64,000 bases of DNA from Alphaproteobacteria bacterium. GTDB taxonomy: Bacteria > Pseudomonadota > Alphaproteobacteria > CAAHEQ01 > UBA3637. Positions within the stretch are counted from its first letter, which is position 1, and each line of letters begins with the position of its first letter. Under the pieces are notes generated by a model. That model was not told the DNA's origin. It worked only from the letters and a program-made list of their open reading frames with translations, and searched no databases. A program made the translations under genes and the position numbers. The stretch spans positions 35,386 through 99,385 of the forward strand of contig JAZQXL010000020.1 in the NCBI GenBank assembly GCA_045632845.1, read 5' to 3'. Of this stretch, positions 7,796-27,036 are shown in pieces.

Positions 7796-8105
7796 AAAAA
7801 AAAGTGGATTTTCTGTTGCTAGGTAATCCACAAACCCCACCTAAACGCTCATATTGTCTAGGGATTGATCGTTACTTAGATACCTAAAATTAAGCAGCTA
7901 AAGCAACTGGAGCAAAATTATCATTTGCGTTTATATTATCAGCCCGATAACGGTGGTACAATACCGGATACAAGAGAAAGCCTTTATTATGCGTGTCGAT
8001 TCTATTTCACCCCCATAATAAATGGTGGAGGTGTCGGGTACTGCCCCCGAGTCCACAGACATCTATTCTGCTTTTCGTTTAGCATCATAGTCAGTTACCT
8101 GACAA
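7796..8105 (-). ncRNA. ssrA: tmRNA (ssrA), two-piece circularly permuted form. Acceptor piece ~8105..8023 ends in CCTCCACCA. An 8-nt linker follows, then the coding piece from ~8014 with tag ORF 7928..7890 and a terminator at ~7796-7831
   Basis: Minus-strand GCA AAT GAT AAT TTT GCT CCA GTT GCT TTA GCT GCT TAA encodes ANDNFAPVALAA-stop. Acceptor 3' strand CACCTCC-A-CCA pairs with GGGGGTG at the start of the coding piece. Stem TCGGG/CCCGA with a 7-nt loop sits before the 3' acceptor strand. Confidence 0.7.
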
Positions 8106-8109
8106 GTTT

Positions 8110-8138
8110 AGTATACCCTAAAATTAAACCAAGCGCAA
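8110..8138 (-). promoter_or_regulatory. Candidate sigma70 promoter for ssrA (TTGCGC, 17 nt, TATACT)
   Basis: hexamers and spacing read from the sequence; AT-rich background makes chance matches possible. Confidence 0.3.
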
Positions 8139-8141
8139 GCT

Positions 8142-9137
8142 CTATTTCTCACCTTGTTTTGACAAATCTCTTAGATTTTTTTGCATTTTAGCTTTAGATA
8201 AATACAAAACAGCAGTTGTTGCTTTTTTACCACTTTCCAAAAGTTGTTGGGCATACAACATCCTTTCTTTTACATTTGATGGCGAAATGCAAATATATTG
8301 TGGAGAGGTCAACAGATACTTCATTAAATGTCTAGCATCTGCATTTGGGTGTTGTGAAAAATAAAACACACCGTTTTCAAAGTTCTCTTGATACATTGTA
8401 ATATTTTGAATCAATGCATTTGTATCTTTACAAAAAAGTTTTGGATGTGAAAAACAAGCATCTATCCAGTCTTGTTTTTGAACACCAAATTTTTGAATAA
8501 AATCACCCATAACCGCACACTTTTGCTTTAACGTTTCAATATCTTTCACCAATATGTCTGGCATTTTTTTCAAAACAGAAACACTTTCATCAAAAGAAAC
8601 ACCATGCGATTTTGAAAAAGCAATAAAATCCATCAATTTCACATCTAGATTTTCAGGATTTATTTTTAAAACATTTGGATATTTAAAAGCCATTTTAACA
8701 AAATCAGTAATAGATACTTTATATTTTGATAAAACAATCAATCCATCATTGATGTTTTTCTTAATTTTTTTAGGCCCCCAACCCAATACCGCTCTCCCAT
8801 GAGCTGTTGAAGACATTTCGTTTAAAAAAAGCTTAGAATCAGCACCTTTTTCTTGAATAAAAGACAACAAATCATTCAATGATGCAGGTAGATACGAAAA
8901 AACAATCCCATCACTAAGCGTATTGTACATATCTTCTTTTGAAACACCACAATCAGAAAAAATCTTTTCAAACAAAGAAAAACGTTCTTGAATATTCACC
9001 CGCAAAAACGGTAAAGATTCTTCTTTTTCTTTTTGACGGACATTCAAAAGTTTCAAAATCTGTTCCTTTGAAAAACCAACAGTTTTAAAATCTTCAACAA
9101 TCTTATTCAAAATCTTTTTTTTATCTTGATTTTCCAT
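8142..9137 (-). CDS. Paralog 1 of a three-gene tandem family with ~35-aa helical repeats containing a PxLL core (mTERF-like solenoid); unknown function
   Basis: Repeated motifs such as KYPNVLKINPENL, SHPKLFCKDTNALIQ; N-terminus GFSKEQILKLL shared with paralogs 2 and 3. Confidence 0.5.
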   Translation of the reverse strand: MENQDKKKILNKIVEDFKTVGFSKEQILKLLNVRQKEKEESLPFLRVNIQERFSLFEKIFSDCGVSKEDMYNTLSDGIVFSYLPASLNDLLSFIQEKGADSKLFLNEMSSTAHGRAVLGWGPKKIKKNINDGLIVLSKYKVSITDFVKMAFKYPNVLKINPENLDVKLMDFIAFSKSHGVSFDESVSVLKKMPDILVKDIETLKQKCAVMGDFIQKFGVQKQDWIDACFSHPKLFCKDTNALIQNITMYQENFENGVFYFSQHPNADARHLMKYLLTSPQYICISPSNVKERMLYAQQLLESGKKATTAVLYLSKAKMQKNLRDLSKQGEK

Positions 9138-10098
9138 GGGTCATCCTTGATTGAAACAACATTTTTCTTTTTTCAGTCCAAAAACTTTCTGGTGCATTTT
9201 TCAAATCTTCCAAAATAGCTCTTTCTGTTTTATAAAGAGCCATTTTTTGAGCTTTACCCTTTGTTTCTTTAATATATTTGGCATAAAGTCTTTTTAATTT
9301 TAAAGCCTCAAGACTATAAACCAAAACAAATGGTTTTTTGAGCAAATATTCTTGTAAATAAGCTTCATGTTTAACCCCTGCATCATCAACACGAATCAAA
9401 TCATCTTCATACATTTTTTTTAAAAAATTGTACTTTTGCTGCATCAATTTTGGATCAGCATATAACAAAGATGGGAACCTCTCAAAAGAAGTTAGTAAAC
9501 AAGAATTATCCGTCCAAAAAATCTGAGACAATTCATTCACTTTTTTTACAATTGTGTTTGGGTTAGCTGATAAAAGCTCAGGAGCTTTTAATGCCAAACG
9601 AATCCAAATATCTTGAGGAACACCCAATTCTCTTGAACAAGCTTGAATACCACTTTCAATCAAATGTGCACTCTTTTGCAAAATGCTTGGTTTTCGAACA
9701 GCGATACCTTTCCATTCATCCATAGATAAACCTAACACATTCGCCTGTAATTCAATGTTCCTTTTAACCCGCGCAAGAGGAATTGTAAAAATATTCGGTG
9801 TGTTCCAAAAAAGCTTAAAACAGGCACTAGGGTCCATCTCAAAAAAACGACTTACAACCTTTAAATTTCGTTCAATATATTCTGGGGTATATCCAAAAAA
9901 ACGAGGTGTTTTTCTTAACTTTATAATACTTTCTTTTCTTGTTTTTTTGTATGTTGAAAACAAATTTACAAAACCATTAATCCGATCTGTAATTTGTGTT
10001 TGAGCAAAAGGATTTTCAGCGCTGCGTAAATTAATAATCCGCATCGCTTCTTCAGCTGTAAAACCATTTTTTTCAAACTCTTTAATAATTTCTTGCAT
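9121..10098 (-). CDS. Paralog 2 of the PxLL-repeat family; start placed at the ATG overlapping the upstream stop (TAATG), because the track start at 10155 is a TTG
   Basis: Repeats RKTPRFFGYTPEYIERNLKVV / WNTPNIFTIPLARVKRNIELQ / VRKPSILQKSAHLIESGIQ / LKAPELLSANPNTIVKKVNEL / ERFPSLLYADPKLMQQKYNFL. Confidence 0.5.
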   Translation of the reverse strand: MQEIIKEFEKNGFTAEEAMRIINLRSAENPFAQTQITDRINGFVNLFSTYKKTRKESIIKLRKTPRFFGYTPEYIERNLKVVSRFFEMDPSACFKLFWNTPNIFTIPLARVKRNIELQANVLGLSMDEWKGIAVRKPSILQKSAHLIESGIQACSRELGVPQDIWIRLALKAPELLSANPNTIVKKVNELSQIFWTDNSCLLTSFERFPSLLYADPKLMQQKYNFLKKMYEDDLIRVDDAGVKHEAYLQEYLLKKPFVLVYSLEALKLKRLYAKYIKETKGKAQKMALYKTERAILEDLKNAPESFWTEKRKMLFQSRMTHGKSR

Positions 10099-11300
10099 TA
10101 CTTCCCTTTTTGATTTTTTAAATACGCTTGAAAAAGAGCTGGATTTTTCTTCCAAAAATCATCTGGAACATTTTTTAAATCTTCCATAATTTTGCTTGAC
10201 CGTTTCCATATTGGTGCCTTAGATGAAACCCCTTGATTTTCTTTTATCCATAAGCCATAAGCACGCCTTACTTCCAAAGATTGCATGCTGGGAACAAGCA
10301 TTTCTTTTGCATTTTTTAAAATATGATTTTTTAATAAATTTAAATCTTTTTTTGCTTCATTTCCAAGACAAAAAGCATCATCTAAATACATCTGTTTATA
10401 AAAATCATATTTTTGTTTAATCGAGTTAGGCGCACACAAAAATAAAGTAGGCATTTTCAAAAATGAAGTGATAATTGTTTTTGAATCTGTAGAAAATATA
10501 TCTGCAACTTTTGAAACATTAGAATGGATTCTATCAGGCGCTACTTGCAACAACGAGGGAGCAAATAAATACATTTTGCAAATATCTTCTTTTGGCAAAT
10601 TAAAATATTTTGTCCCAGCATCTATTTTTTCAATCAAATTTTGATCTGAATAACTCAACAATGAAGGTGCTTTCAAAAATGATTTTTGAACATCATCTTT
10701 TGACACATCAAAATCTTCTGATATCTTTTGTATGAGATTTAAAACCGTTTCTGGATTTCTGGTTAATATATTTGGAAACTCCTTAAATAATTTTGAAAAA
10801 TCAGTTTCATCTAAATTTAAACCTTTTTTTAAAAGTGTTACGTTTTTCATCACATATTCAGGAGAAAAAGCAAGCAATGTAGGATGCTTCAAACTTTTTT
10901 CTAAAAAAACAGCGGGTTCAACACCAACAATTTCAGCATTTTTAATTAAATTTGAAAAAAGTCCCTCAGGTTTTCTGGTTAACAAATTAGGCTGTTTAAC
11001 AAGAATTGAAACAAGTTTTTCTGGTTCTATTTTCAAAAGTTTTGCATTTTGAAGTAGGTTTTTCCTCAACATTGGTAAAGAGGTTGTTAACAATAAGCGA
11101 GGCTCTTTTACAATCGCTTTTTTTGCCACATTTTTAGAAACTGAAAATTCATCAAAAAACAAAAAAAGATCATCTATCTTCTTTGATATTTCTGTTTTTG
11201 AAAAAGGATTTACCTTTGTCTTCATCCAAAAATCAATAACTTTAGATGCCTCATCCTTTGAAAAACCAGCGTTTAAAAATGTGTCAACAACTTCACTCAT
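10098..11300 (-). CDS. Paralog 3 of the PxLL-repeat family (400 aa); its start overlaps the rlmB stop (ATGA)
   Basis: Repeats VKEPRLLLTTSLPMLRKNLL / VKQPNLLTRKPEGLFSNLIKN / LKHPTLLAFSPEYVMKNVTLL / FKEFPNILTRNPETVLNLIQKI / LKAPSLLSYSDQNLIEKIDAG. Confidence 0.5.
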   Translation of the reverse strand: MSEVVDTFLNAGFSKDEASKVIDFWMKTKVNPFSKTEISKKIDDLFLFFDEFSVSKNVAKKAIVKEPRLLLTTSLPMLRKNLLQNAKLLKIEPEKLVSILVKQPNLLTRKPEGLFSNLIKNAEIVGVEPAVFLEKSLKHPTLLAFSPEYVMKNVTLLKKGLNLDETDFSKLFKEFPNILTRNPETVLNLIQKISEDFDVSKDDVQKSFLKAPSLLSYSDQNLIEKIDAGTKYFNLPKEDICKMYLFAPSLLQVAPDRIHSNVSKVADIFSTDSKTIITSFLKMPTLFLCAPNSIKQKYDFYKQMYLDDAFCLGNEAKKDLNLLKNHILKNAKEMLVPSMQSLEVRRAYGLWIKENQGVSSKAPIWKRSSKIMEDLKNVPDDFWKKNPALFQAYLKNQKGK

Positions 11301-12206: not shown

Positions 12207-15200
12207 TTAATTTTTACTAACATCAAATGAAATGGAGGAATCACCCAATTCTTCGACTTTAAACAAGTTTTCTGTTACAGGTTTAATTTCAACAGCAAGA
12301 ACTTGATCTTTGATGTAATTTTCATGTTCACCAATGGCTTCTTTAACCAAAGATGAGATTGTGTTATATGAAAGAGTAATTCTATCAGAAACATCAAAAC
12401 TCTTTTCTTTTCTCAAAGATTGAATCATACGAACAAAGTCACGAGCAATACCTTCTTTTTCAAGTTCTGGTACAATTTCAACATCTAATTGAACAACAAC
12501 TGTATTGTCTGGAAGAGCTTGTCCTTGTAATCCTTCTTTCAACACAAGACGTAACTCAAATTCTTCAGCTGTCAATGTTTGACCTGCAATTGAGAGTGTA
12601 CCATCTTCATTTTTATGCCAATTTGCGCCTTTTGATTCTGCCATAATATCTTTCATAAAACGACCCAAGCGTTTTCCAATTAATGGCGTTTTTAAATAAA
12701 GGAATGTATTTGCAACTTCTTTAATATCTGTTTTAAAGATAATTTCTTTAACATTCACTTCTTCTTTCAAAACTTCAGCAAATTCATAAAGTTTTTCAAC
12801 ACTTGCCCCTGCCAATGTCATTGAACGCAATGGCAAACGGTTACGTAATCTGTGTTCTTCACGAATAGCTTTTGCTGTTGAAGAAATGGCACGAACCATA
12901 TCCATTTTTTCCATCAACTCTGTATCAAGTGTCAAAGCACTCACATCAGGATATGTTCTCAAATGAACAGATTCTTTACCCGCCAAACTACGATAGACAT
13001 ATTCACTCATCATTGGCATCAACGGAGCCATAACTTTAGCAACAGTGATTAAAACAGTGTAAAGCACATTAAAGGCATCCAAATCTGTACCGTCCCAGAA
13101 ACGTGTACGAGAACGGCGGATGTACCAGTTGTTTAAAATATCTAAAAATTCTGAACAAAGTGCACAAGCTTGATTGATGTCGTAAGCTTGCATTGATGTT
13201 TTAACATCCTCAGTCAAAACTTTTAATTTAGATAAAATGTACTTATCCAAAACATCTGTTGATCCAACTGTTTTTGTTGCTTTAATACCTTCAGCATTTG
13301 CATAGAGGCAGAAGAAATAGAAAGCATTCCATAAAGGCATTAATGCTTTACGAGCAGCTTTTGAAACTTCTTTACCCTCTTGGTCAATCATAACGTTACC
13401 ACCCTTAATAACAGGGGATGAAATCAAGAACCAACGAAGCGCATCAGAACCCATTGAATCAAGAACAATGTATGGATCTGGGTAGTTTTTCAACTTTTTA
13501 GAAAGTTTAACACCACCTTCCGCCATAATAAGTCCTGTACATAAACAGTTTTTAAACGCTGGTTTATGATGAAGTGCTGTACCTAAAACATGCAATGTAT
13601 AGAACCATCCACGTGTCTGATCAATTGCTTCAACAATAAAATCAGCTGGGAAATGATTTTCAAACCATGTTTTGTTTTCAAATGGATAATGGATTTGACC
13701 TTCAGGCATTGAACCAGATTCAAACCAACAATCGAAAACATCTGTTACACGGCGCATCATTGTTTTGCCAGATGGATCATCTGGGTTTTTGTAAACAACA
13801 TCATCAATGATTGGACGGTGCAAATCAGAAACTTCAATACCTGTTTTTTCTTTAATTTCAGCAATTGAACCAAATACATCAATGCGTGGAAATTCTGGAT
13901 TATCAGATTTCCAAACAGGAATTGGGGTTCCCCAAAAACGATTTCGTGAGATTGACCAATCTCTTGCACCTTCAAGCCACTTACCAAAACGACCATGTTT
14001 TAAGTGATCAGGAGTCCAAGTAATTTGTTCATTCAAAGCAACCATTTCATCTCTAAAGTCAGAAACTTTCACAAACCACCCACTCATTGCTTTATAAATA
14101 AGTGGTGTATCAGTCCGCCAGCAGTAGGGATAACTGTGTGTGATTTGTTCTTTCTTAACCAAAAGACGATTTTCTTTTAACCAAGCCATAATAGCTTCAT
14201 TTGTGTCAAAAACTTGTTGTCCTTGATAATCCGGAACTTCAGCTGTAAAACAACCAGCTTCATCCACAGGACATACAACAGGGAATTCTGGGTTTAATGA
14301 ACGGCAAACATCAAAGTCATCTTGCCCAAAACCAGGAGCAATATGAACAATACCTGTACCATCTTCCACAGACACAAATTCACCAGATAAAACCTTAAAA
14401 CATCCAGCTTCTTTTAATGATTTAAAATATGGGAACATTGGTTCATAAGAAAGACCGACCAACTCTGAACCTTTGATTGTTCCAACTTGTTCTGCGTGCT
14501 GCAACTGTTGTTTATATCTTGGCAACAAAGCTGCTGCTAAAATATATTTTTCATCCCCTTCTTGCATAATTGCATAATCAATATCTGCTCCAACTGCCAG
14601 CATTAGGTTTGAAGGAAGCGTCCAAGGGGTTGTTGTCCACACAAGAACATTCATACCGTTTTCCAATTTAAACAAAACAGTAATAGCTGTATCTGTTTTA
14701 TCTTTATAACCCAAATTTACTTCAAAGTTTGAAACAGGTGTTTGGGCGCACCAAGAATAAGGTTGAACACGATAATCTTCATAAACCAACCCTTTATCAT
14801 ACAACTGTTTAAAGTTGTGGATAATTGATTCCATAAATGGCAAATCCATTGTTTTATAATCATTATCAAAATCAACCCAACGACCAATACGTTTGAACAT
14901 ATCAGTCCAAATTGTTGAATATTTCAAAACATTTGTACGGCAAAAATCATTGAATTTTTGAATACCAAACTCTTCAATTGCTTTATGCCCAGAAACATTC
15001 AATTCTTTTTCAGCCGCCATTTCAGCTGGAAGACCGTGACAGTCCCAACCTAAACGACGTTCAACACGTTTTCCATTCATTGTTTGAAAGCGTGCAATTG
15101 TATCTTTAACGTAAGAAATCATAATATGTCCATAGTGAGGCAACCCGTTTGCAAATGGAGGGCCATCATAGAATACAAATTCTTCAGCTTCTTTTCTAAT

Positions 15201-19484: not shown

Positions 19485-19561
19485 GCACTTGTAGCTCAGC
19501 TGGATAGAGTATTGCCCTCCGAAGGCAAGGGTCGTGAGTTCGAATCTCGCCAAGTGCGCCA
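19485..19561 (+). tRNA. tRNA-Arg (anticodon CCG), CCA encoded
   Basis: Acceptor GCACTTG/CAAGTGC, anticodon arm TTGCC-CTCCGAA-GGCAA, T-arm GTGAG-TTCGAAT-CTCGC, discriminator G then CCA. Confidence 0.8.
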
Positions 19562-19802
19562 AAAAACACCACCTGCAAAGGTGGTTTTTTTGTACTTGAG
19601 CGGGAACAGAACTCACGAAGTGACGTTCGGTGAGCACCGCGAACGACGCCGAAGGCGGTCCTTTAGGACGAGTGTTTTATGCACGAGCAATCTCGCCAAG
19701 TGCGCCAAAAAACACCACCTGCAATGGTGGGCTTTTTTTGTACTTGAGCGGGAGAAAAACTCACGAAGTGACGTTCGGTGAGCCTTGCAAACGACGCCAA
19801 GC
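19543..19802 (+). repeat. Tandem imperfect direct repeat (two ~115-122 bp copies, 19543-19664 and 19689-19802, ~90% identical). Each copy contains the last ~19 nt of tRNA-Arg, the terminator hairpin and ~60 bp of downstream sequence
   Basis: aatctcgccaagtgcgccaaaaaacaccacctgcaa[a/t]ggtgg...gtacttgagcggga...aactcacgaagtgacgttcggtgagc...aacgacgcc occurs twice. Confidence 0.6.
19563..19593 (+). terminator. Intrinsic terminator after tRNA-Arg (CACCACCTGCAAAGGTGG plus T7)
   Basis: hairpin plus T-run. Confidence 0.5.
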
Positions 19803-19968: not shown

Positions 19969-20043
19969 TGGGCTGTCGCCAAGTGGTAAGGCAACGGTTT
20001 TTGATACCGTCATTCGTTGGTTCGAATCCAGCCAGCCCAGCCA
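19969..20043 (+). tRNA. tRNA-Gln (anticodon TTG), CCA encoded
   Basis: Acceptor TGGGCTG/CAGCCCA, anticodon arm ACGGT-TTTTGAT-ACCGT, T-arm GTTGG-TTCGAAT-CCAGC, then G-CCA. Confidence 0.8.
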
Positions 20044-20049
20044 ATAAAA

Positions 20050-20076
20050 AAGGTCCCGTTTATCGGGACTTTTTTT
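20050..20076 (+). terminator. Intrinsic terminator after tRNA-Gln (GGTCCCG-TTTAT-CGGGACC plus T7)
   Basis: hairpin plus T-run. Confidence 0.5.
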
Positions 20077-20080
20077 ATTG

Positions 20081-20254
20081 GACTGAGGGTGTTTGGGTTC
20101 GGCCCAACGAATAGTTGGTTCGGTCATGTAGCGTCAGCGAAGTGGACGGCGAAGAATGAGCCGGTCCGAACAAAGTGAGGACGAGGGATTTATCCCGAGC
20201 AATCCAGCCAGCTTTAGGTGAAACAGATAAGTCGCTAGAAATAGCGACTTTTTC
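20081..20254 (+). ncRNA. Candidate structured small RNA: GC-rich ~150-nt segment ending in its own intrinsic terminator (GTCGCTAGAAATAGCGAC plus T-run). Identity unknown
   Basis: local GC well above the neighbourhood, no credible ORF, terminator at the 3' end. Confidence 0.25.
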
Positions 20255-20700
20255 TTTTATTTTCACCGCTTAATCTGGTCCGTGTGCTGTGTTTTTCAAA
20301 AAGCCTGTTTTTCAGCCCTACACGGACTCAAAATTCAAAAAATCCTTTGTTTTCAATGCTTCTGTCTTGGAATGTCAATTTTTCATCCCAGAGATAACTA
20401 AATGTATTCAGACTGAGTTTGGATGAGAAAAAGATATTCCTATAACACGCTTATTGCTACTGCCATCTCGGAGTACCTACCTGCCACCTAGAGGACCTTG
20501 GGAGCCCGACCGGCATATCCCAGCCATCAAAATTAAATGCAACATCGTTAATGGAGTGTTTTTTTTGCAAGAGCCTTTACATGCGAGAGCCAATGAGAGT
20601 CTATACTTGTTCAGTATAATTGTTCATTTCAACCTCTGCCTACGCATATACAGAGGTTAAACACAACAAACCTCTGCCAAAAAAGCAGAGCTCAGTACTT

Positions 20701-20771
20701 CGATTAAGTGACATTGATGTCTGTTAATAAAAAAAACAACCTCGATTTAATCAAAACCGAGGTTAAATCAT
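20701..20771. repeat. Left copy of a ~70-bp imperfect direct repeat flanking the R-M cassette; contains the inverted-repeat core TGACA-ttga-TGTCt
   Basis: cgattaagtgacattgatgtctgttaat...aacctcgatttaatcaaaaccgaggttaaat compared with the right copy. Confidence 0.5.
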
Positions 20772-20782
20772 AAAGCAAATAC

Positions 20783-21196
20783 TTACTTTTTTACTTTTTT
20801 TAATTTTCGTATTCCATAAGTTGCATTTAGAAGAACAACATCTAAATCTACTAAACATTTCCTATATTGTTTAATGCCATCATTGAATTTAGGATTTTTT
20901 ATGTAAAGTTCTTCTAAGTAAGATTGAAAAACATCGTATTTTTCTAAATCTTTTTCGTTCAATAAATACATAAATAAAGATTGATTTTTATTAAACCAAT
21001 CAACAATTTTTTGAATACTTTCTTTATCAAACTTATAAATTATACATGCCTCATCCATTTGATGGGCTAAATCAAATCTCTTTAAGCGTAAATCTTGTTT
21101 AAACTGAGCATGAGCAATCCAGCACTGTATCGCAGTAAACAAAACGATAGCAATAGCACACATCCATTCTGCATTCTGTTGTAAAATTTGCAACAC
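20783..21196 (-). CDS. Hypothetical small membrane protein (one N-terminal TM) at the edge of the R-M cassette
   Basis: ORF with TM segment WMCAIAIVLFTAIQCWIAHA. Confidence 0.4.
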   Translation of the reverse strand: MLQILQQNAEWMCAIAIVLFTAIQCWIAHAQFKQDLRLKRFDLAHQMDEACIIYKFDKESIQKIVDWFNKNQSLFMYLLNEKDLEKYDVFQSYLEELYIKNPKFNDGIKQYRKCLVDLDVVLLNATYGIRKLKKVKK

Positions 21197-21243
21197 CTTT
21201 TTCTTTCTCCTATAGGTTAATCACAACATATATAGGTATGCCA

Positions 21244-21564
21244 CTAATATAAATCAATCCCTTTTCCTAATTCTATGTCAAAAACAGTTTGATTTGTGTT
21301 GAGATCATTTTTTGAGTTAGGCTTTAGGATTTTTATTGACTTAATTTCAAATATCATTTTTTCAGGATTTTTTCTATATGCTTTTTGAAATTCAACATAA
21401 GAATATTTATTGGCTACAGACAATCGCTTAATCCAATAGTCTTTACACTCTCGATATTCATGTGTTTTTACACCGGCTTTAATCTTTTCAAACCAGATAT
21501 CTTTCAAAACTAATTTTAAAGTGTTAGACATTATTAAGAACTTTTCTTGAATAGAGTGTCCCAT
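21244..21564 (-). CDS. Small PUA-like (ASCH-type) domain protein, overlapping the 3' end of the methyltransferase gene
   Basis: LKLVLKDIWFEKIKAGVKTHEYRE resembles the ASCH N-terminal beta-barrel signature (W/F-E-x-I-x-x-G-x-K-T-x-E-x-R); weak. Confidence 0.4.
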   Translation of the reverse strand: MGHSIQEKFLIMSNTLKLVLKDIWFEKIKAGVKTHEYRECKDYWIKRLSVANKYSYVEFQKAYRKNPEKMIFEIKSIKILKPNSKNDLNTNQTVFDIELGKGIDLY

Positions 21565-22751
21565 AATTCTGAAATGTGCTTTGCTACGTTATAAGCCAAT
21601 AGAGGTGGAACCGCATTACCTATAATCTTATATGCAGCAGAAGCACTTAATACATTTGGCTTTACAAACTCATATTCATCAGGAAAAGTCTGTATTCTTG
21701 CGCATTCTCTAACAGTTAATCTTCTTTCAGATAGTCCTTTTTTTAACTCTTTTTCATGCTTTCCACCATGATCTTTTGACAATCTTCTGAATTCGATATT
21801 GCCGTGATGTTCTGCACGAATTGTAGGACCTAATCCTTTTAAATTGATTTCAGTATTTCCTTGACCTTTTTGCATATACTTTGCTTTCGAATATGCTTTT
21901 TGAGCAAAATCATCTGACGATGAAGGTTCCGGCAAATCTCTTAATATTTCTTCTACGGATACCAAAGGAAGTAAGTCTTTATTGTCAAACAAAGTGCTTT
22001 TTTGATAAATATTATGTGTAATCGGTGGATATAAATTTATTTCTTTTTTTTCAATCTTCTCAAGAACTCCTGGATTTAAAGCAGCTTTATTTAACCCTAT
22101 AAAAATAATTCTTTCTCGTTTTTGTGGCACACCATATTCGCCAGCATTTAATACTTTTGCAGGGAATACGTAGTAGCCATCCTTATCAATCGACGAAAAA
22201 TCTGATTCTATAATCTTTTTTGCCTCGCCCAAAGAAACCAATCCTTTTACATTTTCTGCAAAAAATATCTTGGGTTTTACGATTTCTATAACTTCTTTCA
22301 TCCACATATATAAACAACCACGATTTTCGTAAGTAGGTATATCGATATCTTTCTTTCCTAAGTGGTTTTTTTGAGAGTTAAATCCATTACGCTTACCTGC
22401 TAAACTAAAATCTTGACAGGGAAAACCTCCCGTGAGAATATCTATATCATTTGGAAACACTCTTTCGCCAGACTTATGTTGTTTAACCAAATCAACGATA
22501 CTTTCTGTTCTATAAGTTGTTTTTTTATCCTTAAAATATAACTTCCATGCAGTAGCAGCTTCTTTTAGTATGTCATTACTAAAAGTAGTGGTAAAACCCG
22601 TTGGAGCTAATAAAACTCTTTTGCCAGATTTCTTTTTTATCCAGTCAGGATGTATTACGGTGTTTACGCTACTTTCATGTACATAGAAATCACCCTCGAA
22701 ACCAATGTCCATACCGCCGCATCCACTGAATAATGATAATACTTTTTTCAT
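21534..22751 (-). CDS. DNA (cytosine-5)-methyltransferase, Dcm family (type II R-M methylase)
   Basis: Motif I FSGCGGMDIGF, motif IV GGFPCQDFSLAG, motif VI FFAENVKGL, motif VIII QKRERIIFIG, motif X GNAVPPLLA; RBS AAGGGAG. Confidence 0.9.
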   Translation of the reverse strand: MKKVLSLFSGCGGMDIGFEGDFYVHESSVNTVIHPDWIKKKSGKRVLLAPTGFTTTFSNDILKEAATAWKLYFKDKKTTYRTESIVDLVKQHKSGERVFPNDIDILTGGFPCQDFSLAGKRNGFNSQKNHLGKKDIDIPTYENRGCLYMWMKEVIEIVKPKIFFAENVKGLVSLGEAKKIIESDFSSIDKDGYYVFPAKVLNAGEYGVPQKRERIIFIGLNKAALNPGVLEKIEKKEINLYPPITHNIYQKSTLFDNKDLLPLVSVEEILRDLPEPSSSDDFAQKAYSKAKYMQKGQGNTEINLKGLGPTIRAEHHGNIEFRRLSKDHGGKHEKELKKGLSERRLTVRECARIQTFPDEYEFVKPNVLSASAAYKIIGNAVPPLLAYNVAKHISELWDTLFKKSS

Positions 22752-22814
22752 TTTACTCCCTTGCTTTATTTAATTCTTCATGCTATACTTAATAACAACT
22801 TTGGAGAATATAAT

Positions 22815-23918
22815 ATGGCAGATATACGCACAAACCTAAGAGAACTTTCAGTTGCGTTTCCGTTTTGTTCAGATATAACGATAGAACAGATTTCCCCTCA
22901 AGCTTTTAAATCTATATGCGAAAACAATATACAAAATTTTAATTCTAATGTAAACAAAATTTCAAAAAATCCCAAAAAATTTTCTTTAGATGAAATAAGT
23001 ATCATAAAAAAAGGCTTTGATCTAGGTCTTTCCTTAAAGAAGATACTCAAACTAGACACTATAGGAAATACAATCGTATGGCTTGGAAATTCAAAAGATG
23101 ATTTAATAGACTTAAAGATAAATGAACATGCGATTTCATTGAAAGAAAAGTCCAACATCCTACGAAACATAGGATTATATCAATTATTAAACTTTACTAC
23201 AAACACAAATAAATTTGAAAGAGGATTAAATATTTTTAAATATTTTGCTCCAGAAGAATTAAATAATTGGTATCACTATGCAATTTTATCTTTAAAAACA
23301 TTAAAAAATTTTTCATATAAAAGCGAAAAAGGATATACATCAACAGCATTCTTTAAAGAAGATTCCTTATTTTTAAGTTTCAACGAAACAGAAGAAATTG
23401 TTAAAAATTCATCTACATCATCTTATTCGGATTTTGAGAAAATAACCTCTGCGACAATAAGAGAAAAAGTTTTTTCAAAATGGTTAAAACAAATTCCAAC
23501 TAAAAGTGATTACTACAAATTTAAAACCATTTGTGCTCAAAAGGCAGGGAATAATCTTTTAAACTTCGTAAAAACAAATTTAGTGGCAACTTCCCCGTCT
23601 GTTCTGAATTTTTTTAATTTAGAAAGTTTTAGCTATATTTATGCAAAAAATGATGGAAAGCAAATAAAAATATTTAAAGTCCCCTCTCTTAATGAAATAG
23701 ATTTTAATGATTATAAAATAGTAAGAGTTGATGTTGATATCCCCAACTCTCAGCTAAATTTTAAAACAACTATACAAAACATCAAAACAGATTCATGCTG
23801 TGTATTGCGTAATGAGATTCGATATTCGCACGGACAGTTAAATGGCACTCCCGAAGCCAAGTTATACTATGACTCTGGTGATGGACTTGAAAAACTAATC
23901 TATAAAAAATTATCCTAA
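22815..23918 (+). CDS. Candidate restriction endonuclease partner (unknown family), divergently transcribed from the C5-MTase with a 63-bp intergenic gap
   Basis: position and divergent orientation only; extremely AT-rich, N/K-rich protein; RBS GGAGAA; no nuclease motif identified. Confidence 0.35.
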   Translation: MADIRTNLRELSVAFPFCSDITIEQISPQAFKSICENNIQNFNSNVNKISKNPKKFSLDEISIIKKGFDLGLSLKKILKLDTIGNTIVWLGNSKDDLIDLKINEHAISLKEKSNILRNIGLYQLLNFTTNTNKFERGLNIFKYFAPEELNNWYHYAILSLKTLKNFSYKSEKGYTSTAFFKEDSLFLSFNETEEIVKNSSTSSYSDFEKITSATIREKVFSKWLKQIPTKSDYYKFKTICAQKAGNNLLNFVKTNLVATSPSVLNFFNLESFSYIYAKNDGKQIKIFKVPSLNEIDFNDYKIVRVDVDIPNSQLNFKTTIQNIKTDSCCVLRNEIRYSHGQLNGTPEAKLYYDSGDGLEKLIYKKLS

Positions 23919-24140
23919 ATTCTTCTGAGTTAACTTTAGAAACGGTGTATTTTCATTTTTCCTGATTTCTATGTACTCAGGTAAGATTTATGTCTAGCCT
24001 TCTTTTTTTAAAAAGACTTCTTGCTCCACATATACAAAGGTTAAAGTAAGAGCCGAGCCCTAAGGGCAGGAAGTTGTGTTTGGCAAATTTTAACCTTTAC
24101 CTACACACATACAAAAGTTCAATGGATAAAACACTCTTTG

Positions 24141-24208
24141 CGATTAACTGACATTGATGTCACTTAATGAAACACAACTTCGGTTTTGATAAAATCGAGG
24201 TTAATTTT
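24141..24208. repeat. Right copy of the ~70-bp imperfect direct repeat flanking the R-M cassette; contains the perfect inverted repeat TGACA-ttga-TGTCA
   Basis: cgattaactgacattgatgtcacttaat...aacttcggttttgataaaatcgaggttaatt. Confidence 0.5.
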
Positions 24209-24279
24209 CTTAGCCTTTCAAAATAATAATAAAAAAATTTTCTAACAACAGTTCAAAAGGAATAAAAAAATTGTTATCC

Positions 24280-25392
24280 TCATTTTTTTGTTAAAAAATT
24301 AACAATCGGCTTATTAAATAGGTGTATAACAACTATTGAAAACAACAAACCAACCCCTAAAACAAAACCAAGTTCAGCAATCCAATCTAAAACAGGTATT
24401 TGAAAATTAAAATTCAGATTATCAGCATAAATATCTATCAAATAAAACTGGAACAAATAAATTCCCCAAGAATACCGTCCAACAATTTGAACAAACTTGT
24501 TGCACAAAAATTGATTTTGAACCAGCATTTGAGAAACAATCAATAATGAAAATATCAATGCCCAAACCGTATGTTTATTAATCAAAAATAAATTGTATGT
24601 ATCGTAAAAATTAAAACACATTAATTCAAAACAAACAATCAACAAAAAATATGAAATTATTTGTTTCCCTGGCACCTTTGAAAGATTTATCTTTTGAAAT
24701 ATATAATATAAAAAAATACCTAAAATCAAAGTTGGAAAATGTTCTATAAAGCAAAAATCAGAGATATAAGAATTATATACCTTCTCATCTAACGAATCAG
24801 AAAAAGGTTTTAATCGAAACAAAAACTCATTAAGATAATAAACCACAGGACTAGACAAAGCAAACAAAAAAAGCGCCTTAAAAACTGAATTAACATATTT
24901 GAATAAAAAAGGAATTAATAATGTAAATATCGCCAATACACCAACAAACCATTCTACATACAAAATACTGTTACTATAACGGGGAAAAAAACCATGAACA
25001 AAAAATAAATGCGTCAAAAAATTCGAAATCGTTATGTTTGTTTCGCTCCCCAACCATATAGATTGTTTCTCATAAAAAAAACCAACACAAACAGCCACAT
25101 AAAATAATGGAATTAAAAAACAAAATCTATTTTTTATCCATTTTAGACAAGAAACAAAAGAATATTGATTTTTTTTAAAATAAAAACTCAAACTATTATA
25201 GGACAAAAATACCGAAATCAAAAAAAACAAAACAACCCCACACCAACCTGCTCTGACAATTCCTAAAAGCAATTGGGGTAAATCTAATTCAGCACCTGTG
25301 TGTACCATAAGAACAAACAGCATTGCATAGCCTTTTAATGCATCTGCCCATATCAATCTTTTTGAATTAAAAGCCGTTATCTCTTTTTCCAT
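24280..25392 (-). CDS. Membrane acyltransferase, family 3 (OafA/O-acetylase-like)
   Basis: ~10 TM segments; N-terminal ADALKGYAMLFVLMVHTG pattern typical of the acyltransferase_3 family. Confidence 0.55.
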   Translation of the reverse strand: MEKEITAFNSKRLIWADALKGYAMLFVLMVHTGAELDLPQLLLGIVRAGWCGVVLFFLISVFLSYNSLSFYFKKNQYSFVSCLKWIKNRFCFLIPLFYVAVCVGFFYEKQSIWLGSETNITISNFLTHLFFVHGFFPRYSNSILYVEWFVGVLAIFTLLIPFLFKYVNSVFKALFLFALSSPVVYYLNEFLFRLKPFSDSLDEKVYNSYISDFCFIEHFPTLILGIFLYYIFQKINLSKVPGKQIISYFLLIVCFELMCFNFYDTYNLFLINKHTVWALIFSLLIVSQMLVQNQFLCNKFVQIVGRYSWGIYLFQFYLIDIYADNLNFNFQIPVLDWIAELGFVLGVGLLFSIVVIHLFNKPIVNFLTKK

Positions 25393-25662: not shown

Positions 25663-27036
25663 ATGAAGAGTCCAGTTTTATACAATTTGTCTGAAATAAA
25701 AGAGCTTTATGATGCCTTTAAAGAATATGTTAGAACAAAAGGATTTTATGAGGAGTGTATGGACTCTTTAAAAAAATACAACACCTCCTTTTTTAAACTG
25801 ATTGTCAAAAGTAATCAGACAAAAAAACTATTCAAGGTAAGAAAAAACGACTTTTTAGGAAAAAGCACCATCGGTGCAAACAATACCCTATCTAAACCAA
25901 CAATTGAAGATGCTCATTTTTATCGTGCTTGGGTTAAAAACAATCCTACTCAAGATTTAATCCCAACAAAAATCACGTTTAAAAAAAGGTACATCAATCT
26001 ACTTGGAAACACGGATCAATCTTTTGATAATGTCCGCATTTTTATATCCCCAAATGCGCTAATTTTGCCCAAAACAGAAGATAAAAGACCACTTAAAGAA
26101 ATACCAACACAAAATCCTCATGCAATTGAAGAATTGGTCTATTTAGCTGAAGCTTATGATGAATTTATTTTTTCATACAAAGGGTCTAAAAATCAGAAAA
26201 ATTTTGATGAATTTTTTAAAAATAACTTTTTAACCAAAGTTATCCCTCCTTATTTTCGCCAATCCATGGCTGAACCAATTATTAAAATTGTTGAACAAAC
26301 AAGACGCTTGTTAACACAAACATTGTTACAAAATTTTGAACCACAAATAACGGCAAGACAAAATTTATTAAACAATACAGATACTCCTGAAGTTTTTCTA
26401 AAAAACAACAGAAATGAAGTTTTTATCCTCTCAGAACAAGTTGGCGTTATTGATAACGCTCAAAAATTAATCAAACTTCATGATTTAAGAGACGACTTGG
26501 CACATCCAGATACAGAAATGGACATTCTTGTTGATGTTCCTGAAAATGTAAATGAAATTTATGAAACTGTTTTTAACATGATTCGTCGCATCACAACAAC
26601 CAAAAATTTAACAGTTCAAAAAGTAACAAACACAAACGATTCAAATGACCTCACTCCTTTTGTTTTGTGGGCACAAGGCCATAAAGTTAAAGATCACATC
26701 CCAGTTATTGAAAAGAACAAAGACATTGAAACGCCAACATTAATTCACACAATGCAATGTTTGGATATGGCTGTCAAAAGCGCTGCGCCAATTAGTTCAA
26801 ACGGAAAACCTTTAAAAGGGAAAAAACAACGCGACTGGCTTATTAAAGAAGGAATAATGGACCAATCTGATCAACAAGATTATGAAGCAGCAAAACATTT
26901 AAGAAATGCTGTATGCCATGGAAATGCAAATACACAAACACATATGGATATCATTGCGAAAAATGAAACATCACAAAAATTAACTCAAAAAATCATCAAC
27001 AATATGACTCAAAAAGGTCTATTGCAAAAATCATAA
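25663..27036 (+). CDS. Hypothetical 457-aa protein with two HEPN-like Rx4H motifs (LRDDLAH near residue 276, HLRNAVCHGN near residue 415)
   Basis: motif-level only; no other recognisable domain. Confidence 0.35.
   Translation: MKSPVLYNLSEIKELYDAFKEYVRTKGFYEECMDSLKKYNTSFFKLIVKSNQTKKLFKVRKNDFLGKSTIGANNTLSKPTIEDAHFYRAWVKNNPTQDLIPTKITFKKRYINLLGNTDQSFDNVRIFISPNALILPKTEDKRPLKEIPTQNPHAIEELVYLAEAYDEFIFSYKGSKNQKNFDEFFKNNFLTKVIPPYFRQSMAEPIIKIVEQTRRLLTQTLLQNFEPQITARQNLLNNTDTPEVFLKNNRNEVFILSEQVGVIDNAQKLIKLHDLRDDLAHPDTEMDILVDVPENVNEIYETVFNMIRRITTTKNLTVQKVTNTNDSNDLTPFVLWAQGHKVKDHIPVIEKNKDIETPTLIHTMQCLDMAVKSAAPISSNGKPLKGKKQRDWLIKEGIMDQSDQQDYEAAKHLRNAVCHGNANTQTHMDIIAKNETSQKLTQKIINNMTQKGLLQKS

What the first reader, a model, noticed from the sequence alone, without database searches (positions are those of the whole stretch)
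20701..24208. Compact R-M cassette (Dcm MTase plus divergent candidate REase plus ASCH-like protein) bracketed by imperfect ~70-bp direct repeats carrying a TGACA-ttga-TGTCA inverted repeat
A C5-cytosine methyltransferase with all canonical motifs is divergently paired, 63 bp away, with a 367-aa extremely AT-rich ORF that is the obvious REase candidate. A small ASCH/PUA-like ORF overlaps the MTase 3' end. The block is flanked by ~70-bp direct repeats (20701-20771 and 24141-24208, ~70-75% identical). Each contains a short perfect or near-perfect inverted repeat that could be a recombinase or regulator binding site. The block lies next to two tRNA genes. This looks like a horizontally acquired, possibly once-mobile R-M unit.
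Basis: partly seen in the sequence, partly recalled or inferred. Interest (0 to 1): 0.6.

Follow-up and report, generated by a model that had tools for sequence, protein, structure and literature searches.

The report
Restriction-modification cargo between conserved palindrome modules
A genuine cytosine-methylase/restriction-enzyme gene pair sits in a cargo slot of a decayed mobile element beside tRNA-Gln, and the flanking "repeats" are boundary modules (a 26-bp palindrome plus a terminator hairpin) that bracket quite different restriction systems in related gut bacteria.

Summary
A Dcm-type MTase (21534-22751, -) and a 367-aa partner (22815-23918, +) diverge from a 63-bp spacer. The partner matches a Type II REase model over its full length. 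In five lineages it always lies beside an orthologous MTase.

The flanking repeats are real but misdescribed. Each is a 26-bp palindrome, "C" (ATTAAsTGACAT-TG-ATGTCAsTTAAT; 20703-20728 and 24143-24168), followed by a hairpin. The two hairpins are inverted relative to each other and act as outward-facing terminators.

C is not specific to this cassette. Its 19-nt core occurs in about 80 loci of uncultured gut Alphaproteobacteria. It is almost always intergenic and sits at fixed distances upstream of several operons of an integrative-element family.

In relatives, the same left and right modules (92-96% identical) bracket a DpnII-like system (L081) or an MspI-like system (L022). The window holds a degraded copy of such an element: its backbone and serine-integrase end are missing.

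What C does is inferred, not shown. An operator or boundary site is most likely. A recombination site is not excluded. The R-M system itself is ordinary; the conserved slot is moderately interesting.

The parts
19969..20043 (+). tRNA-Gln (UUG), the anchor of the island. A degenerate second copy of its 3' end lies at 20197-20219, after a 185-nt remnant.
   Evidence: ARAGORN. The sequence GAGCAATCCAGCCAGC is visible. In L055 a serine-integrase element sits between tRNA-Gln and a displaced copy of the tRNA 3' end.
20221..20660 (.). Conserved segment shared with other species. It contains the inverted repeat GTCCGTGTG...CACACGGAC (20278-20328) and ends in hairpin A.
   Evidence: 79-86% identical to L029, L041, L023 and L081. 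L007 and L008, contigs with an identical Rho, diverge from the window at about 20265.
20631..20692 (+). Left module, hairpins A (20631-20658) and A2 (20672-20690).
   Evidence: The RNA fold gives -17.6 kcal/mol, z -4.2. 93-96% identical to L042, L050 and L081.
20703..20728 (+). Palindrome C, left copy: ATTAAGTGACATTGATGTCTGTTAAT.
   Evidence: Conservation among six loci ends about 9 nt to its right (alignment A6).
20737..20765 (-). Hairpin D. It is a rho-independent terminator of the M-ASCH-137aa operon, with a 12-bp stem followed by T8 on the minus strand.
   Evidence: Terminator scan. Fold gives -14.5 kcal/mol, z -3.2.
20783..21196 (-). 137-aa ORF of unknown function with a hydrophobic N-terminus. 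It travels with the ASCH-like gene.
   Evidence: No family hit. 97-98% identical copies occur in L012-L015 with a different left module.
21244..21531 (-). 95-aa ASCH/PUA-like protein. Its start codon lies 2 nt after the MTase stop.
   Evidence: 1049 homologues. AF2 pLDDT 92.7. Foldseek best hits are ASCH 3iuw, 2z0t and 5gus, followed by YTH and EVE domains. Matches phrog_625.
21534..22751 (-). C5-cytosine DNA methyltransferase (405 aa).
   Evidence: PF00145 1.1e-58, TIGR00675, PADLOC MTase_II 4.9e-77. 54% identical over its full length to the MTases that partner the REase homologues in Microcystis and Arcobacter.
22752..22814 (.). 63-bp divergent control region between M and R. No C-protein gene is present.
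   Evidence: Sequence. The Arcobacter homologue has an HTH_3 C-protein gene at this position.
22815..23918 (+). 367-aa Type II restriction endonuclease candidate.
   Evidence: PADLOC REase_II PDLC03456 at 8.4e-51, covering residues 1-357. 111 homologues. Always adjacent to a Dcm gene. D99 and S108-L-K110-E111 are invariant and lie on adjacent beta strands.
24016..24119 (+). Right module, upstream part: hairpin A' (24016-24045), hairpin B GCCCTAAGGGC (24058-24074), hairpin A'' (24092-24119).
   Evidence: Window 24057-24245, which includes B and A'', is 89-95% identical to L045, L081, L025, L020 and L018.
24143..24168 (+). Palindrome C, right copy: ATTAACTGACATTGATGTCACTTAAT.
   Evidence: Identical in nine loci. 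Conservation common to all nine begins about 8 nt to its left (alignment A7).
24176..24241 (+). Hairpin D' (24176-24202), terminator-like on the + strand with its loop inverted relative to D, followed by the conserved tail TTCTTAGCC... Homology to intact elements stops at about 24241.
   Evidence: In intact elements the tail continues into a promoter-like motif, a 55-aa ORF and a large serine recombinase gene.

Best explanation
The block is a Type II, 5-methylcytosine R-M system. It comprises a Dcm-family MTase and a probable PD-(D/E)XK-type REase, transcribed divergently from a 63-bp control region. A separable two-gene module (ASCH/PUA-like protein plus a 137-aa ORF) lies downstream of the MTase.

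The system is cargo in a defined slot of a family of integrative elements found next to tRNA-Gln in uncultured gut Alphaproteobacteria. The two 'repeats' are paralogous boundary modules of the element backbone. Each has a 26-bp palindrome C, most likely a binding site for a dimeric protein (an operator or boundary site), and a hairpin terminator (D or D'). The terminators face outwards and insulate the cargo.

Different R-M systems occupy the same slot in relatives. Exchange is most simply explained by homologous recombination in the conserved flanking modules, as in the pneumococcal DpnI/DpnII cassette locus.

In this window the element is a relic. The Rep/DUF3768 backbone between two A hairpins is deleted. 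The 55-aa-ORF/serine-integrase end is cut off at about 24241.

Shown: gene identities, conservation and placement of the modules, alternative cargo, and terminator structure. Inferred: protein binding at C, the exchange mechanism, the REase fold and activity, and the recognition sequence.
For: R-M identity:
- (PF00145 1e-58; REase_II HMM 8e-51 over the full length).
- the REase family lies next to a Dcm gene in three alphaproteobacterial lineages, in Microcystis, and in Arcobacter. In Arcobacter it has a canonical C-protein gene.
- the partner MTases are 54-78% identical over their full length, against 25-31% for unrelated Dcm MTases.
- invariant D99/SLKE on adjacent strands in a pLDDT-92 model.

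Slot:
- L081 has tRNA-Gln, then a segment homologous to window 20201-20660 (85.7%), then A-A2-C (92.6% to window 20628-20735).
- Next comes its cargo: a D12 MTase, an N6_N4 MTase, a 176-aa ORF and a DpnII REase.
- The slot closes with B-A''-C-D'-tail (95.3% to window 24057-24245), followed by the integrase.
- L022 has an MspI-like REase and an HTH-Dcm between the same modules.
- Conservation stops about 9 nt inside C-left and starts about 8 nt before C-right. The halves of C do not co-vary with the cargo.

C as a backbone site:
- 37 + 52 loci carry the 19-nt core.
- Of 103 sites, only 1 lies inside an ORF of at least 100 aa.
- C sits at fixed distances upstream of four gene families: 67 nt for the 397-aa family (13 of 15; all within 50-237 nt), 131-135 nt for a Type III mod-like MTase, 306-480 nt for the 83-aa/DUF3768 operon, and 130-990 nt for the serine integrase.
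- The exact core occurs only 1-3 times per MAG.

Terminators.

C is not needed for cargo shuffling: L046 and L012-14 carry the same cargo with an A-B-D module that lacks C.

The integrase's attachment site is the tRNA-Gln 3' end, not C.
Against: - No protein that binds C was identified, and no regulator gene lies in the window.
- Among all sites, C is not enriched at 5' ends of genes (52 and 56 of 103, about the random expectation).
- The C loci were ascertained with a pattern containing the palindrome core, so its apparent invariance is biased.
- No empty slot was found for this genome. The neighbouring acyltransferase has no homologue above 50% identity.
- Foldseek found no solved structure resembling the REase model, so the nuclease fold rests on motifs only.
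- In arrays most C sites are in direct orientation, which a pure operator model does not require.
Confidence: 0.6

Rival explanations
1. Insertion with long target duplication (Kobayashi type). The R-M unit itself inserted into a single pre-existing A-C-D boundary sequence and duplicated about 70-130 bp of it. Other R-M systems later replaced it in relatives.
For: - The same R-M family is flanked by direct repeats of unrelated sequence elsewhere.
- In Arcobacter, 37 nt at 92% identity lies directly outside the M-C-R unit, between the MscS and EamA genes.
- In L001, 56 nt at 80% identity contains a variant palindrome plus a hairpin.
- The phenomenon is documented for all R-M types (PMC2853133).
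Against: - C modules occur in two to three copies per element regardless of R-M cargo. Examples are L069, L098 and the third copy in L081.
- The left and right copies are only about 75-88% alike, whereas each is 92-96% identical to its orthologue in other species. Any duplication therefore predates the present cargo.
- The hairpin half is inverted, not direct.
- No empty site is available.
Confidence: 0.2
2. C is a crossover site for a site-specific recombinase: the small resolvase found near it, another serine or tyrosine enzyme, or an HUH protein acting on the hairpin. C-bracketed segments would then be excisable and insertable cassettes, comparable to integron cassettes, pdif modules or SCC elements.
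For: - C has a 12-2-12 (or 11-6-11) architecture with an asymmetric centre.
- In five arrays all sites are in direct orientation.
- Variable DNA begins within about 9 nt of C on the cargo side at both ends.
- A 205-aa resolvase gene ends about 115 nt from C in L025, L045 and L020 (136 nt in L051). A resolvase gene lies within 3.5 kb in four more loci.
- HUH Rep-like genes end about 80 nt from C in several loci.
- The outer halves are 'G-type' and the inner halves 'C-type', as in attL/attR hybrids. This rests on a single nucleotide position only.
Against: - Breakpoints lie outside complete palindromes, not at their centre, and the halves of C do not co-vary with cargo.
- The same cargo occurs with a left module that lacks C.
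- Mixed orientations occur in L038 and L049.
- C lies at the 3' end of the resolvase genes, not the 5' end, and no resolvase gene has C upstream.
- The large serine integrase uses the tRNA-Gln 3' end.
- No recombinase is encoded in the 64-kb window.
- Fixed distances to start codons and promoter-like motifs suggest a regulatory role.
Confidence: 0.15
3. The flanking similarity is incidental: a dispersed REP/MITE-like repeat, or chance similarity in AT-rich intergenic DNA.
For: The region is AT-rich and rich in short hairpins. The modules A, B, C and D occur in shuffled orders.
Against: - There are no further copies in the 64-kb window and only 1-3 per MAG, so this is not a high-copy repeat.
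- The 26-bp palindrome is conserved across about 80 loci and many species, while the flanks diverge.
Confidence: 0.03

Closest known systems
Type II m5C restriction-modification systems with divergent M and R genes (REBASE-type; PADLOC models MTase_II PDLC03378 and REase_II PDLC03456)
   Same: A Dcm MTase with all motifs. An adjacent REase-family gene co-inherited with an orthologous MTase across phyla. One relative (Arcobacter) carries a C-protein gene.
   Different: No C protein here. Recognition sequence unknown. The REase model has no detectable structural relative in the PDB by Foldseek. An ASCH/PUA-like gene follows the MTase stop codon after a 2-nt gap.
Streptococcus pneumoniae DpnI/DpnII cassette locus (alternative R-M cassettes between conserved flanks, exchanged by homologous recombination; own knowledge, Lacks et al. 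1986)
   Same: One locus with conserved flanks 92-96% identical. It holds mutually unrelated R-M systems in different genomes, including a DpnII-type one in L081.
   Different: The flanks here are short non-coding modules (palindrome plus hairpins) inside a mobile-element backbone, not chromosomal genes. Exchange by homologous recombination is inferred, not shown.
R-M 'insertion with long target duplication' (Furuta, Abe & Kobayashi 2010, PMC2853133)
   Same: The R and M genes are flanked by direct repeats longer than 30 bp with no transposase. The Arcobacter and L001 copies of the same R-M family fit the pattern.
   Different: In the window the repeat is a multi-copy backbone module shared with other cargo. 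The hairpin half is inverted. No empty target site was found.
Defence hotspots in mobile elements (P2/P4 prophage hotspots, SXT ICE hotspot 5, integron defence cassettes; own knowledge)
   Same: A fixed position in a conserved element backbone carries interchangeable defence cargo. The location is adjacent to a tRNA gene.
   Different: The element family is uncharacterised: serine integrase, HUH Rep-like protein, DUF3768, in uncultured gut Alphaproteobacteria. The slot is delimited by a conserved 26-bp palindrome rather than by backbone genes.
Serine-recombinase crossover sites (hix/gix, res site I), integron attC, and Acinetobacter pdif modules
   Same: A palindrome of 12-bp arms around a 2-bp asymmetric centre. 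Directly repeated copies bracket gene modules.
   Different: No sequence similarity. Breakpoints are not at the centre. There is no adjacent cognate recombinase in the canonical position. No GTTRRRY or XerC/D arm motifs are present.

Membership tests
Type II R-M system (m5C) | C5-MTase with conserved motifs I, IV (PCQ), VI (ENV), VIII and X | tested here: met
   PF00145 1.1e-58 and TIGR00675 1.9e-53. The motifs are visible in the translation.
Type II R-M system (m5C) | Adjacent gene belonging to a restriction endonuclease family | tested here: met
   PADLOC REase_II PDLC03456 at 8.4e-51 over the full length. Adjacency to orthologous Dcm genes is conserved in five lineages.
Type II R-M system (m5C) | Nuclease catalytic fold or motif (e.g. 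PD-(D/E)XK) | tested here: inconclusive
Type II R-M system (m5C) | Sequence-specific cleavage blocked by the cognate methylation; a defined recognition site | not testable with these tools
   Requires REBASE comparison, a methylome or biochemistry.
R-M insertion with long target duplication | R and M genes flanked by direct repeats >30 bp with no other mobility gene in the insert | tested here: met
   32 nt at 88% identity plus further similarity. No recombinase lies between the repeats. However, the hairpin half is inverted.
R-M insertion with long target duplication | A related genome has a single copy of the repeat at an empty site | tested here: inconclusive
   No empty site was found. Relatives with the same flanks carry other cargo. 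Contigs with an identical Rho diverge earlier or are too short.
Alternative-cassette R-M locus (DpnI/DpnII type) | The same conserved flanks enclose unrelated R-M systems in different genomes | tested here: met
   The window holds Dcm plus the 367-aa REase. L081 holds a DpnII-like system. L022 holds an MspI-like system. Flanks are 92-96% identical.
Serine-recombinase or integron-like cassette site | Crossover within the site (hybrid halves, breakpoints at the centre) | tested here: not met
   Complete palindromes are conserved with the flanks. Divergence starts about 8-9 nt outside C. The halves do not co-vary with cargo.
Serine-recombinase or integron-like cassette site | A cognate recombinase gene linked to the site | tested here: inconclusive
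   A resolvase gene ends about 115 nt from C in L025, L045 and L020 (136 nt in L051), and a resolvase gene lies nearby in four more loci. It is never upstream-linked and is absent from the window. The integrase uses the tRNA 3' end. A tyrosine recombinase was not searched for exhaustively.
C-protein/C-box controlled R-M | An HTH controller gene upstream of R, with its operator in the R-M control region | tested here: not met
   No HTH ORF lies in 22752-22814. Palindrome C lies outside the unit. The Arcobacter relative does have a C gene.
ASCH / PUA-like domain | Match to the family profile, or the beta-barrel PUA-like fold | tested here: met
   Pfam is below threshold (E 0.046; 4 of 47 homologues at <=1e-3). 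The AF2 model (pLDDT 92.7) matches ASCH structures 3iuw, 2z0t and 5gus at probability 0.99-1.0 and TM-scores up to 0.62.

The most novel reading that the evidence does not exclude
The 26-bp palindrome C is the recombination site of a cassette system in gut Alphaproteobacteria. Segments bracketed by directly repeated C sites, including whole R-M systems, would be excised as circles and inserted at other C sites. The enzyme would act in trans and could be the linked small resolvase or an HUH protein. This would be functionally analogous to integrons, pdif modules or SCC arrays, but with a different site and enzyme.
Probability: 0.15. Interest if true: 0.7.

Novelty: new variant of a known kind. 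Interest (0 to 1): 0.4.

Why it matters
The R-M system itself adds one more member to a known class.

The useful result is the context. A previously undescribed family of tRNA-Gln-associated integrative elements in uncultured gut Alphaproteobacteria carries a fixed cargo slot. The slot is marked by a highly conserved 26-bp palindrome and terminator hairpins. At least three unrelated Type II R-M systems, and other genes, are found in it.

The 19-nt core is therefore a practical sequence handle for finding defence cargo in these poorly known genomes. If C proves to be a recombination site, it would define a new cassette-exchange system. If it is an operator, it defines the regulon of these elements.

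Tried and rejected
- Pfam and NCBIfam gave nothing for the 367-aa ORF. PDB sequence search gave only noise. tblastn against plasmids found no match.
- Rfam found no RNA family in 18-26 kb apart from the tRNAs. C folds weakly as RNA, so an RNA element was rejected.
- An integron attC was considered and rejected, because there is no R''/R' core.
- A dif/Xer site was considered and rejected, because the arms do not resemble XerC/D arms.
- A hix/gix-like half-site in the D loop was rejected, because it lacks two-fold symmetry.
- C as the attachment site of the large serine integrase was rejected. L055 shows integration at the tRNA-Gln 3' end.
- The search for an empty site failed. The REase and GNAT exact look-ups were not on record. 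The acyltransferase has no close homologue. L060 and L065 proved to be occupied.
- Apparent extra motif copies at 41.5 kb and 45.1 kb are chance matches inside genes.
- A literature search for the palindrome sequence found nothing relevant.
- No C core was found in IMG/VR viral contigs.
- The attL/attR 'hybrid halves' idea rests on one nucleotide and on biased ascertainment, so it was not adopted.

Full report
**1. What is in the window**

Four ORFs lie between 20.7 and 24.2 kb:
- a 137-aa ORF (20783-21196, -)
- a small ORF (21244-21564/21531, -)
- a 405-aa ORF (21534-22751, -)
- a divergent ORF (+ strand) ending at 23918

The 405-aa protein is a C5-cytosine MTase: PF00145 1.1e-58, TIGR00675 1.9e-53, PADLOC MTase_II 4.9e-77.

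The divergent ORF should start at the ATG at 22815, giving 367 aa. All 111 homologues are about 365-375 aa and begin MADI..NLRELS.

GC content falls to 0.25-0.30 across 20.6-27 kb, against 0.35-0.39 in the Rho/SucCD genes.

tRNA-Arg and tRNA-Gln lie at 19485-19561 and 19969-20043.

The source is an uncultured alphaproteobacterial MAG. Evidence: a permuted tmRNA, and Rho cluster members that are named 'MAG: Alphaproteobacteria bacterium'.

**2. The partner ORF is a restriction endonuclease candidate**

Pfam and NCBIfam are silent on it. PADLOC's REase_II model PDLC03456 matches residues 1-357 at E=8.4e-51.

Its homologues lie beside a Dcm gene in every context examined:
- L001/L002: divergent, 64-bp spacer
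- L003-L006: divergent
- Microcystis aeruginosa: convergent
- Arcobacter: M, then an HTH_3 controller gene overlapping R, which is the classical C-protein arrangement

The partner MTases are orthologous over their whole length. They are 78%, 74%, 55% and 54% identical to the window MTase. Unrelated Dcm genes from the same loci are 25-31% identical. R and M therefore travel as a pair.

**3. The small ORF**

Pfam ASCH is below threshold (E=0.046). Of 47 homologues, only 4 reach 1e-3.

A model with pLDDT 92.7 matches ASCH structures 3iuw, 2z0t and 5gus at probability 0.99-1.0 (TM-scores up to 0.62). YTH and EVE domains follow. The PUA-like/ASCH fold is therefore supported.

Homologues and the called genes in L012/L013 are 95 aa. 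This places the start at 21531, 2 nt after the MTase stop (TAA at 21536-21534), so there is no real overlap.

This gene and the 137-aa ORF form a separable pair:
- They recur at 97-98% identity in L012-L015.
- L013 diverges from the window exactly at the MTase stop, so a different upstream neighbour replaces the MTase there.
- They are absent from the R-M pairs of L001, L003, Microcystis and Arcobacter.

**4. The repeats**

They are real: 20701-20732 against 24141-24172 is 88% identical.

The core is a 26-bp palindrome, C: ATTAAsTGACAT-TG-ATGTCAsTTAAT, at 20703-20728 and 24143-24168. The 13-mer TGACATTGATGTC occurs exactly only at these two places in the 64-kb window. Other weak matches fall inside genes and are chance.

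The second half of each 'repeat' is a hairpin: D at 20737-20765 and D' at 24176-24202. The two match better as inverted copies (86% over 37 nt; 22/23 by blastn) than as direct copies (77%).

- D followed by T8 on the minus strand is a good terminator for the M-ASCH-137aa operon.
- D' followed by AATTTTCTT on the plus strand is terminator-like for rightward transcription.
- The folds give -14.5 and -12.3 kcal/mol, with z of -3.2 and -3.4.

C folds only weakly as RNA (-5 to -6 kcal/mol), so it is more likely a duplex DNA site.

Upstream of each C there is also a shared hairpin A (AACCTCTG-N12-CAGAGGTT; 20631, 24016, 24092). The right side additionally has hairpin B.

**5. C is a lineage-wide element, not a feature of this cassette**

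The 19-nt core ATTAASTGACATTGATGTC has:
- 37 hits in GTDB species representatives, about 30 of them in gut Alphaproteobacteria MAGs from deer, sheep, rabbit and human
- 52 more hits in metagenome contigs
- no hits in IMG/VR

Hits outside this lineage lack the rest of the palindrome and look like chance.

Of 103 sites with at most 3 mismatches, only one lies inside an ORF of at least 100 aa.

C sits at conserved distances upstream of several gene families:

| Gene family | Distance of C upstream |
|---|---|
| 397-aa family preceding a fused C5-MTase | 67 nt in 13 of 15 (all within 50-237 nt) |
| N6/N4 MTase resembling a Type III mod gene | 131-135 nt |
| 83-aa/DUF3768 operon | 306-480 nt |
| Large serine recombinase gene | 130-990 nt (14 of 24) |

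A promoter-like motif, TTTACA-N17-CATAT, follows many C sites. The exact core occurs only 1-3 times per MAG, so C is not a REP-like high-copy repeat.

Gene families recurring around C:
- large serine recombinases (28 loci)
- C5-MTases (27 loci)
- the 83-aa family (27 loci)
- DUF3768
- HUH Rep-like proteins (PF23343)
- a 205-aa resolvase

Together these describe an uncharacterised family of integrative elements. Many lie next to tRNA-Gln.

**6. The same slot holds other R-M systems**

The best comparator is L081. Read in window orientation, it runs:
1. tRNA-Gln
2. the GTCCGTGTG inverted repeat
3. a segment 85.7% identical to window 20201-20660
4. A-B-D-C1
5. a Rep-like gene, a 319-aa ORF, DUF3768, a 69-aa ORF and the 83-aa gene
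6. A-A2-C2, 92.6% identical to window 20628-20735
7. cargo
8. B-A''-C3-D'-tail, 95.3% identical to window 24057-24245
9. a 55-aa ORF
10. the large serine recombinase

The L081 cargo is a DpnII-type system: a D12 N6A-MTase, an N6_N4 MTase, a 176-aa ORF and a DpnII REase at 2.9e-88.

L022 has the same backbone (DUF3768, the 69-aa and 83-aa ORFs on the left; C-D'-tail and the 55-aa ORF on the right). Its cargo is an MspI-like REase (2e-50) and an HTH-fused Dcm between the two C sites.

Other loci carry non-R-M cargo between C sites, for example an Aas-like 1120-aa protein in L017 and L029.

Multiple alignments show where conservation ends:
- Among six loci, conservation runs through C-left and ends about 9 nt to its right.
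- Among nine loci, conservation begins about 8 nt to the left of C-right.
- The C-right sequence is identical in all nine. The C-left sequence does not vary with the cargo.

The complete palindromes therefore belong to the backbone, and the variable DNA lies strictly between them.

**7. What the window represents**

Hairpin A at 20631-20658 matches both the A next to the chromosomal segment and the A before C2 in L081. The Rep/DUF3768 backbone between them is missing from the window. This is consistent with a deletion between the two A copies.

On the right, homology to intact elements stops at about 24241. Others continue into the promoter-like motif, the 55-aa ORF and the integrase. The window continues into a rare acyltransferase_3 gene whose closest homologue is 50% identical.

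No recombinase gene is detectable in the 64 kb by tblastn with the resolvase.

The window therefore keeps only the cargo slot and its two boundary modules from a decayed element.

Contigs that encode an identical Rho protein (L007, L008) diverge from the window at about 20265 and carry an HNH_2 gene instead. The whole region downstream of tRNA-Gln is thus strain-variable.

**8. How the slot is likely to work, and the rivals**

*Favoured reading (confidence about 0.6).* C is a protein-binding operator or boundary site of the element, paired with terminators. Cargo is exchanged by homologous recombination in the conserved modules, as in the pneumococcal DpnI/DpnII cassette locus (own knowledge). 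Supporting points:
- breakpoints lie outside intact palindromes
- C sits at fixed promoter-proximal distances
- the same cargo occurs with a left module that lacks C: A-40nt-B-D in L046 and L012-14, against A-A2-C-D in L042 and the window
- the serine integrase demonstrably uses the tRNA-Gln 3' end, not C. L055 has an element between tRNA-Gln and a displaced copy of the tRNA 3' end, and the window has a similar displaced copy at 20197-20219.

[quoted passage not shown] The same R-M family is flanked by a 37-nt, 92%-identical direct repeat of unrelated sequence in Arcobacter, directly outside the M-C-R unit and between housekeeping genes. In L001 it is flanked by a 56-nt repeat containing a variant palindrome (TTACATCRATGTMA) and a hairpin. 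Against it for the window:
- the two copies are much less alike (75-88%) than each is to its orthologue in other species (92-96%)
- C modules are multi-copy irrespective of R-M cargo.

*Rival 2 (about 0.15): C is a site-specific recombination site.* It fits the 12-2-12 architecture, the mostly direct orientation in arrays, and the nearby resolvase and HUH genes. It is weakened by the breakpoint positions, by the lack of co-variation of the halves, by mixed orientations in L038 and L049, and by the absence of C on one side of some cargo.

*Chance or a REP-like repeat* is essentially excluded.

**9. Comparison with known systems and verdict**

The R-M pair is a new member of a known kind. The repeats, however, are not the ends of this unit. 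They are backbone modules of a wider element family that delimit a cargo slot shared by unrelated R-M systems. That slot is a new variant of the known theme of defence hotspots in mobile elements.

Not settled: the role of C, the recognition sequence and activity of the enzymes, and the existence of an empty site.

Noticed in passing
window 19543-19798; also L007, L008, L010: A ~146-nt unit carries a copy of the tRNA-Arg 3' end (AATCTCGCCAAGTGCGCCA), a terminator hairpin and about 90 nt more. It is tandemly repeated after tRNA-Arg. Copy number differs among contigs that encode an identical Rho: the tRNA-Arg to tRNA-Gln spacing is 18 nt in L010, 221 in L008, 407 in the window and 609 in L007. 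A homologous ~185-nt unit ending in a partial tRNA-Gln 3' end follows tRNA-Gln (20044-20228). These may be integration scars or a small tRNA-targeting element.
   Followed up: partly
window 25663-27036 (+): A 457-aa ORF with no Pfam hit carries two Rx4H motifs (RDDLAH and RNAVCH). It has a weak PADLOC CARF_HEPN match (E 1.7e-4). It may be a double-HEPN toxin or defence protein in the same low-GC island.
   Followed up: no
window 20278-20328; L007 ~12290-12350; L003 ~700-760: An inverted repeat GTCCGTGTG-N-CACACGGAC lies downstream of tRNA-Gln. At the same position L007, L008 and the left junction of L003 have a different inverted repeat (GTTCRAAGAT...ATCTTCGAAC). A single GTCCGTGTG arm sits about 40 nt upstream of the serine integrase gene in L045, L018 and L081. 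Its role (attachment site or terminator) is unresolved.
   Followed up: partly
L016, L024, L067, L079, L084, L094, L099 and others: In another genus, tRNA-Gln is followed after about 130 nt by a C site whose right arm is degenerate. In most of these loci a 397-411-aa protein with no Pfam hit starts exactly 67 nt later, followed by a 645-aa fused C5-MTase. L079 and L094 (and relatives L032, L039, L089) also have a 200-aa resolvase next to the MTase; L099 also carries a Type III-like mod/res pair. This is probably another R-M island at the same hotspot.
   Followed up: partly
L107 2339-2375 and 5142-5178 (Arcobacter sp., AP038804.1): The homologous M-C-R unit is bracketed by a 37-nt, 92%-identical direct repeat between the MscS and EamA genes. 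This looks like a textbook R-M insertion with long target duplication. An empty site was not checked.
   Followed up: partly
window 24280-25392 (-): The acyltransferase_3 gene abutting the right module is very rare. Its closest homologue among 5.8 billion clusters is 50% identical. It is probably further island cargo.
   Followed up: partly
window ~8178-11300 (by correspondence with L007 1-3123): Three tandem ORFs are annotated with the mTERF domain (PF02536), a family mostly known from organelles. They lie next to a SpoU methylase and just downstream of the permuted tmRNA gene (7799-8116).
   Followed up: no
L003/L004 8135-8740: In the sheep-colon MAG, the same R-M pair has a 192-201-aa Dam-like ORF overlapping the MTase 3' end, at the position occupied by the ASCH-like gene in the window. 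There the pair lies inside a 16.6-kb island with a large serine recombinase and an AAA_13 protein, and it has no C palindromes.
   Followed up: partly
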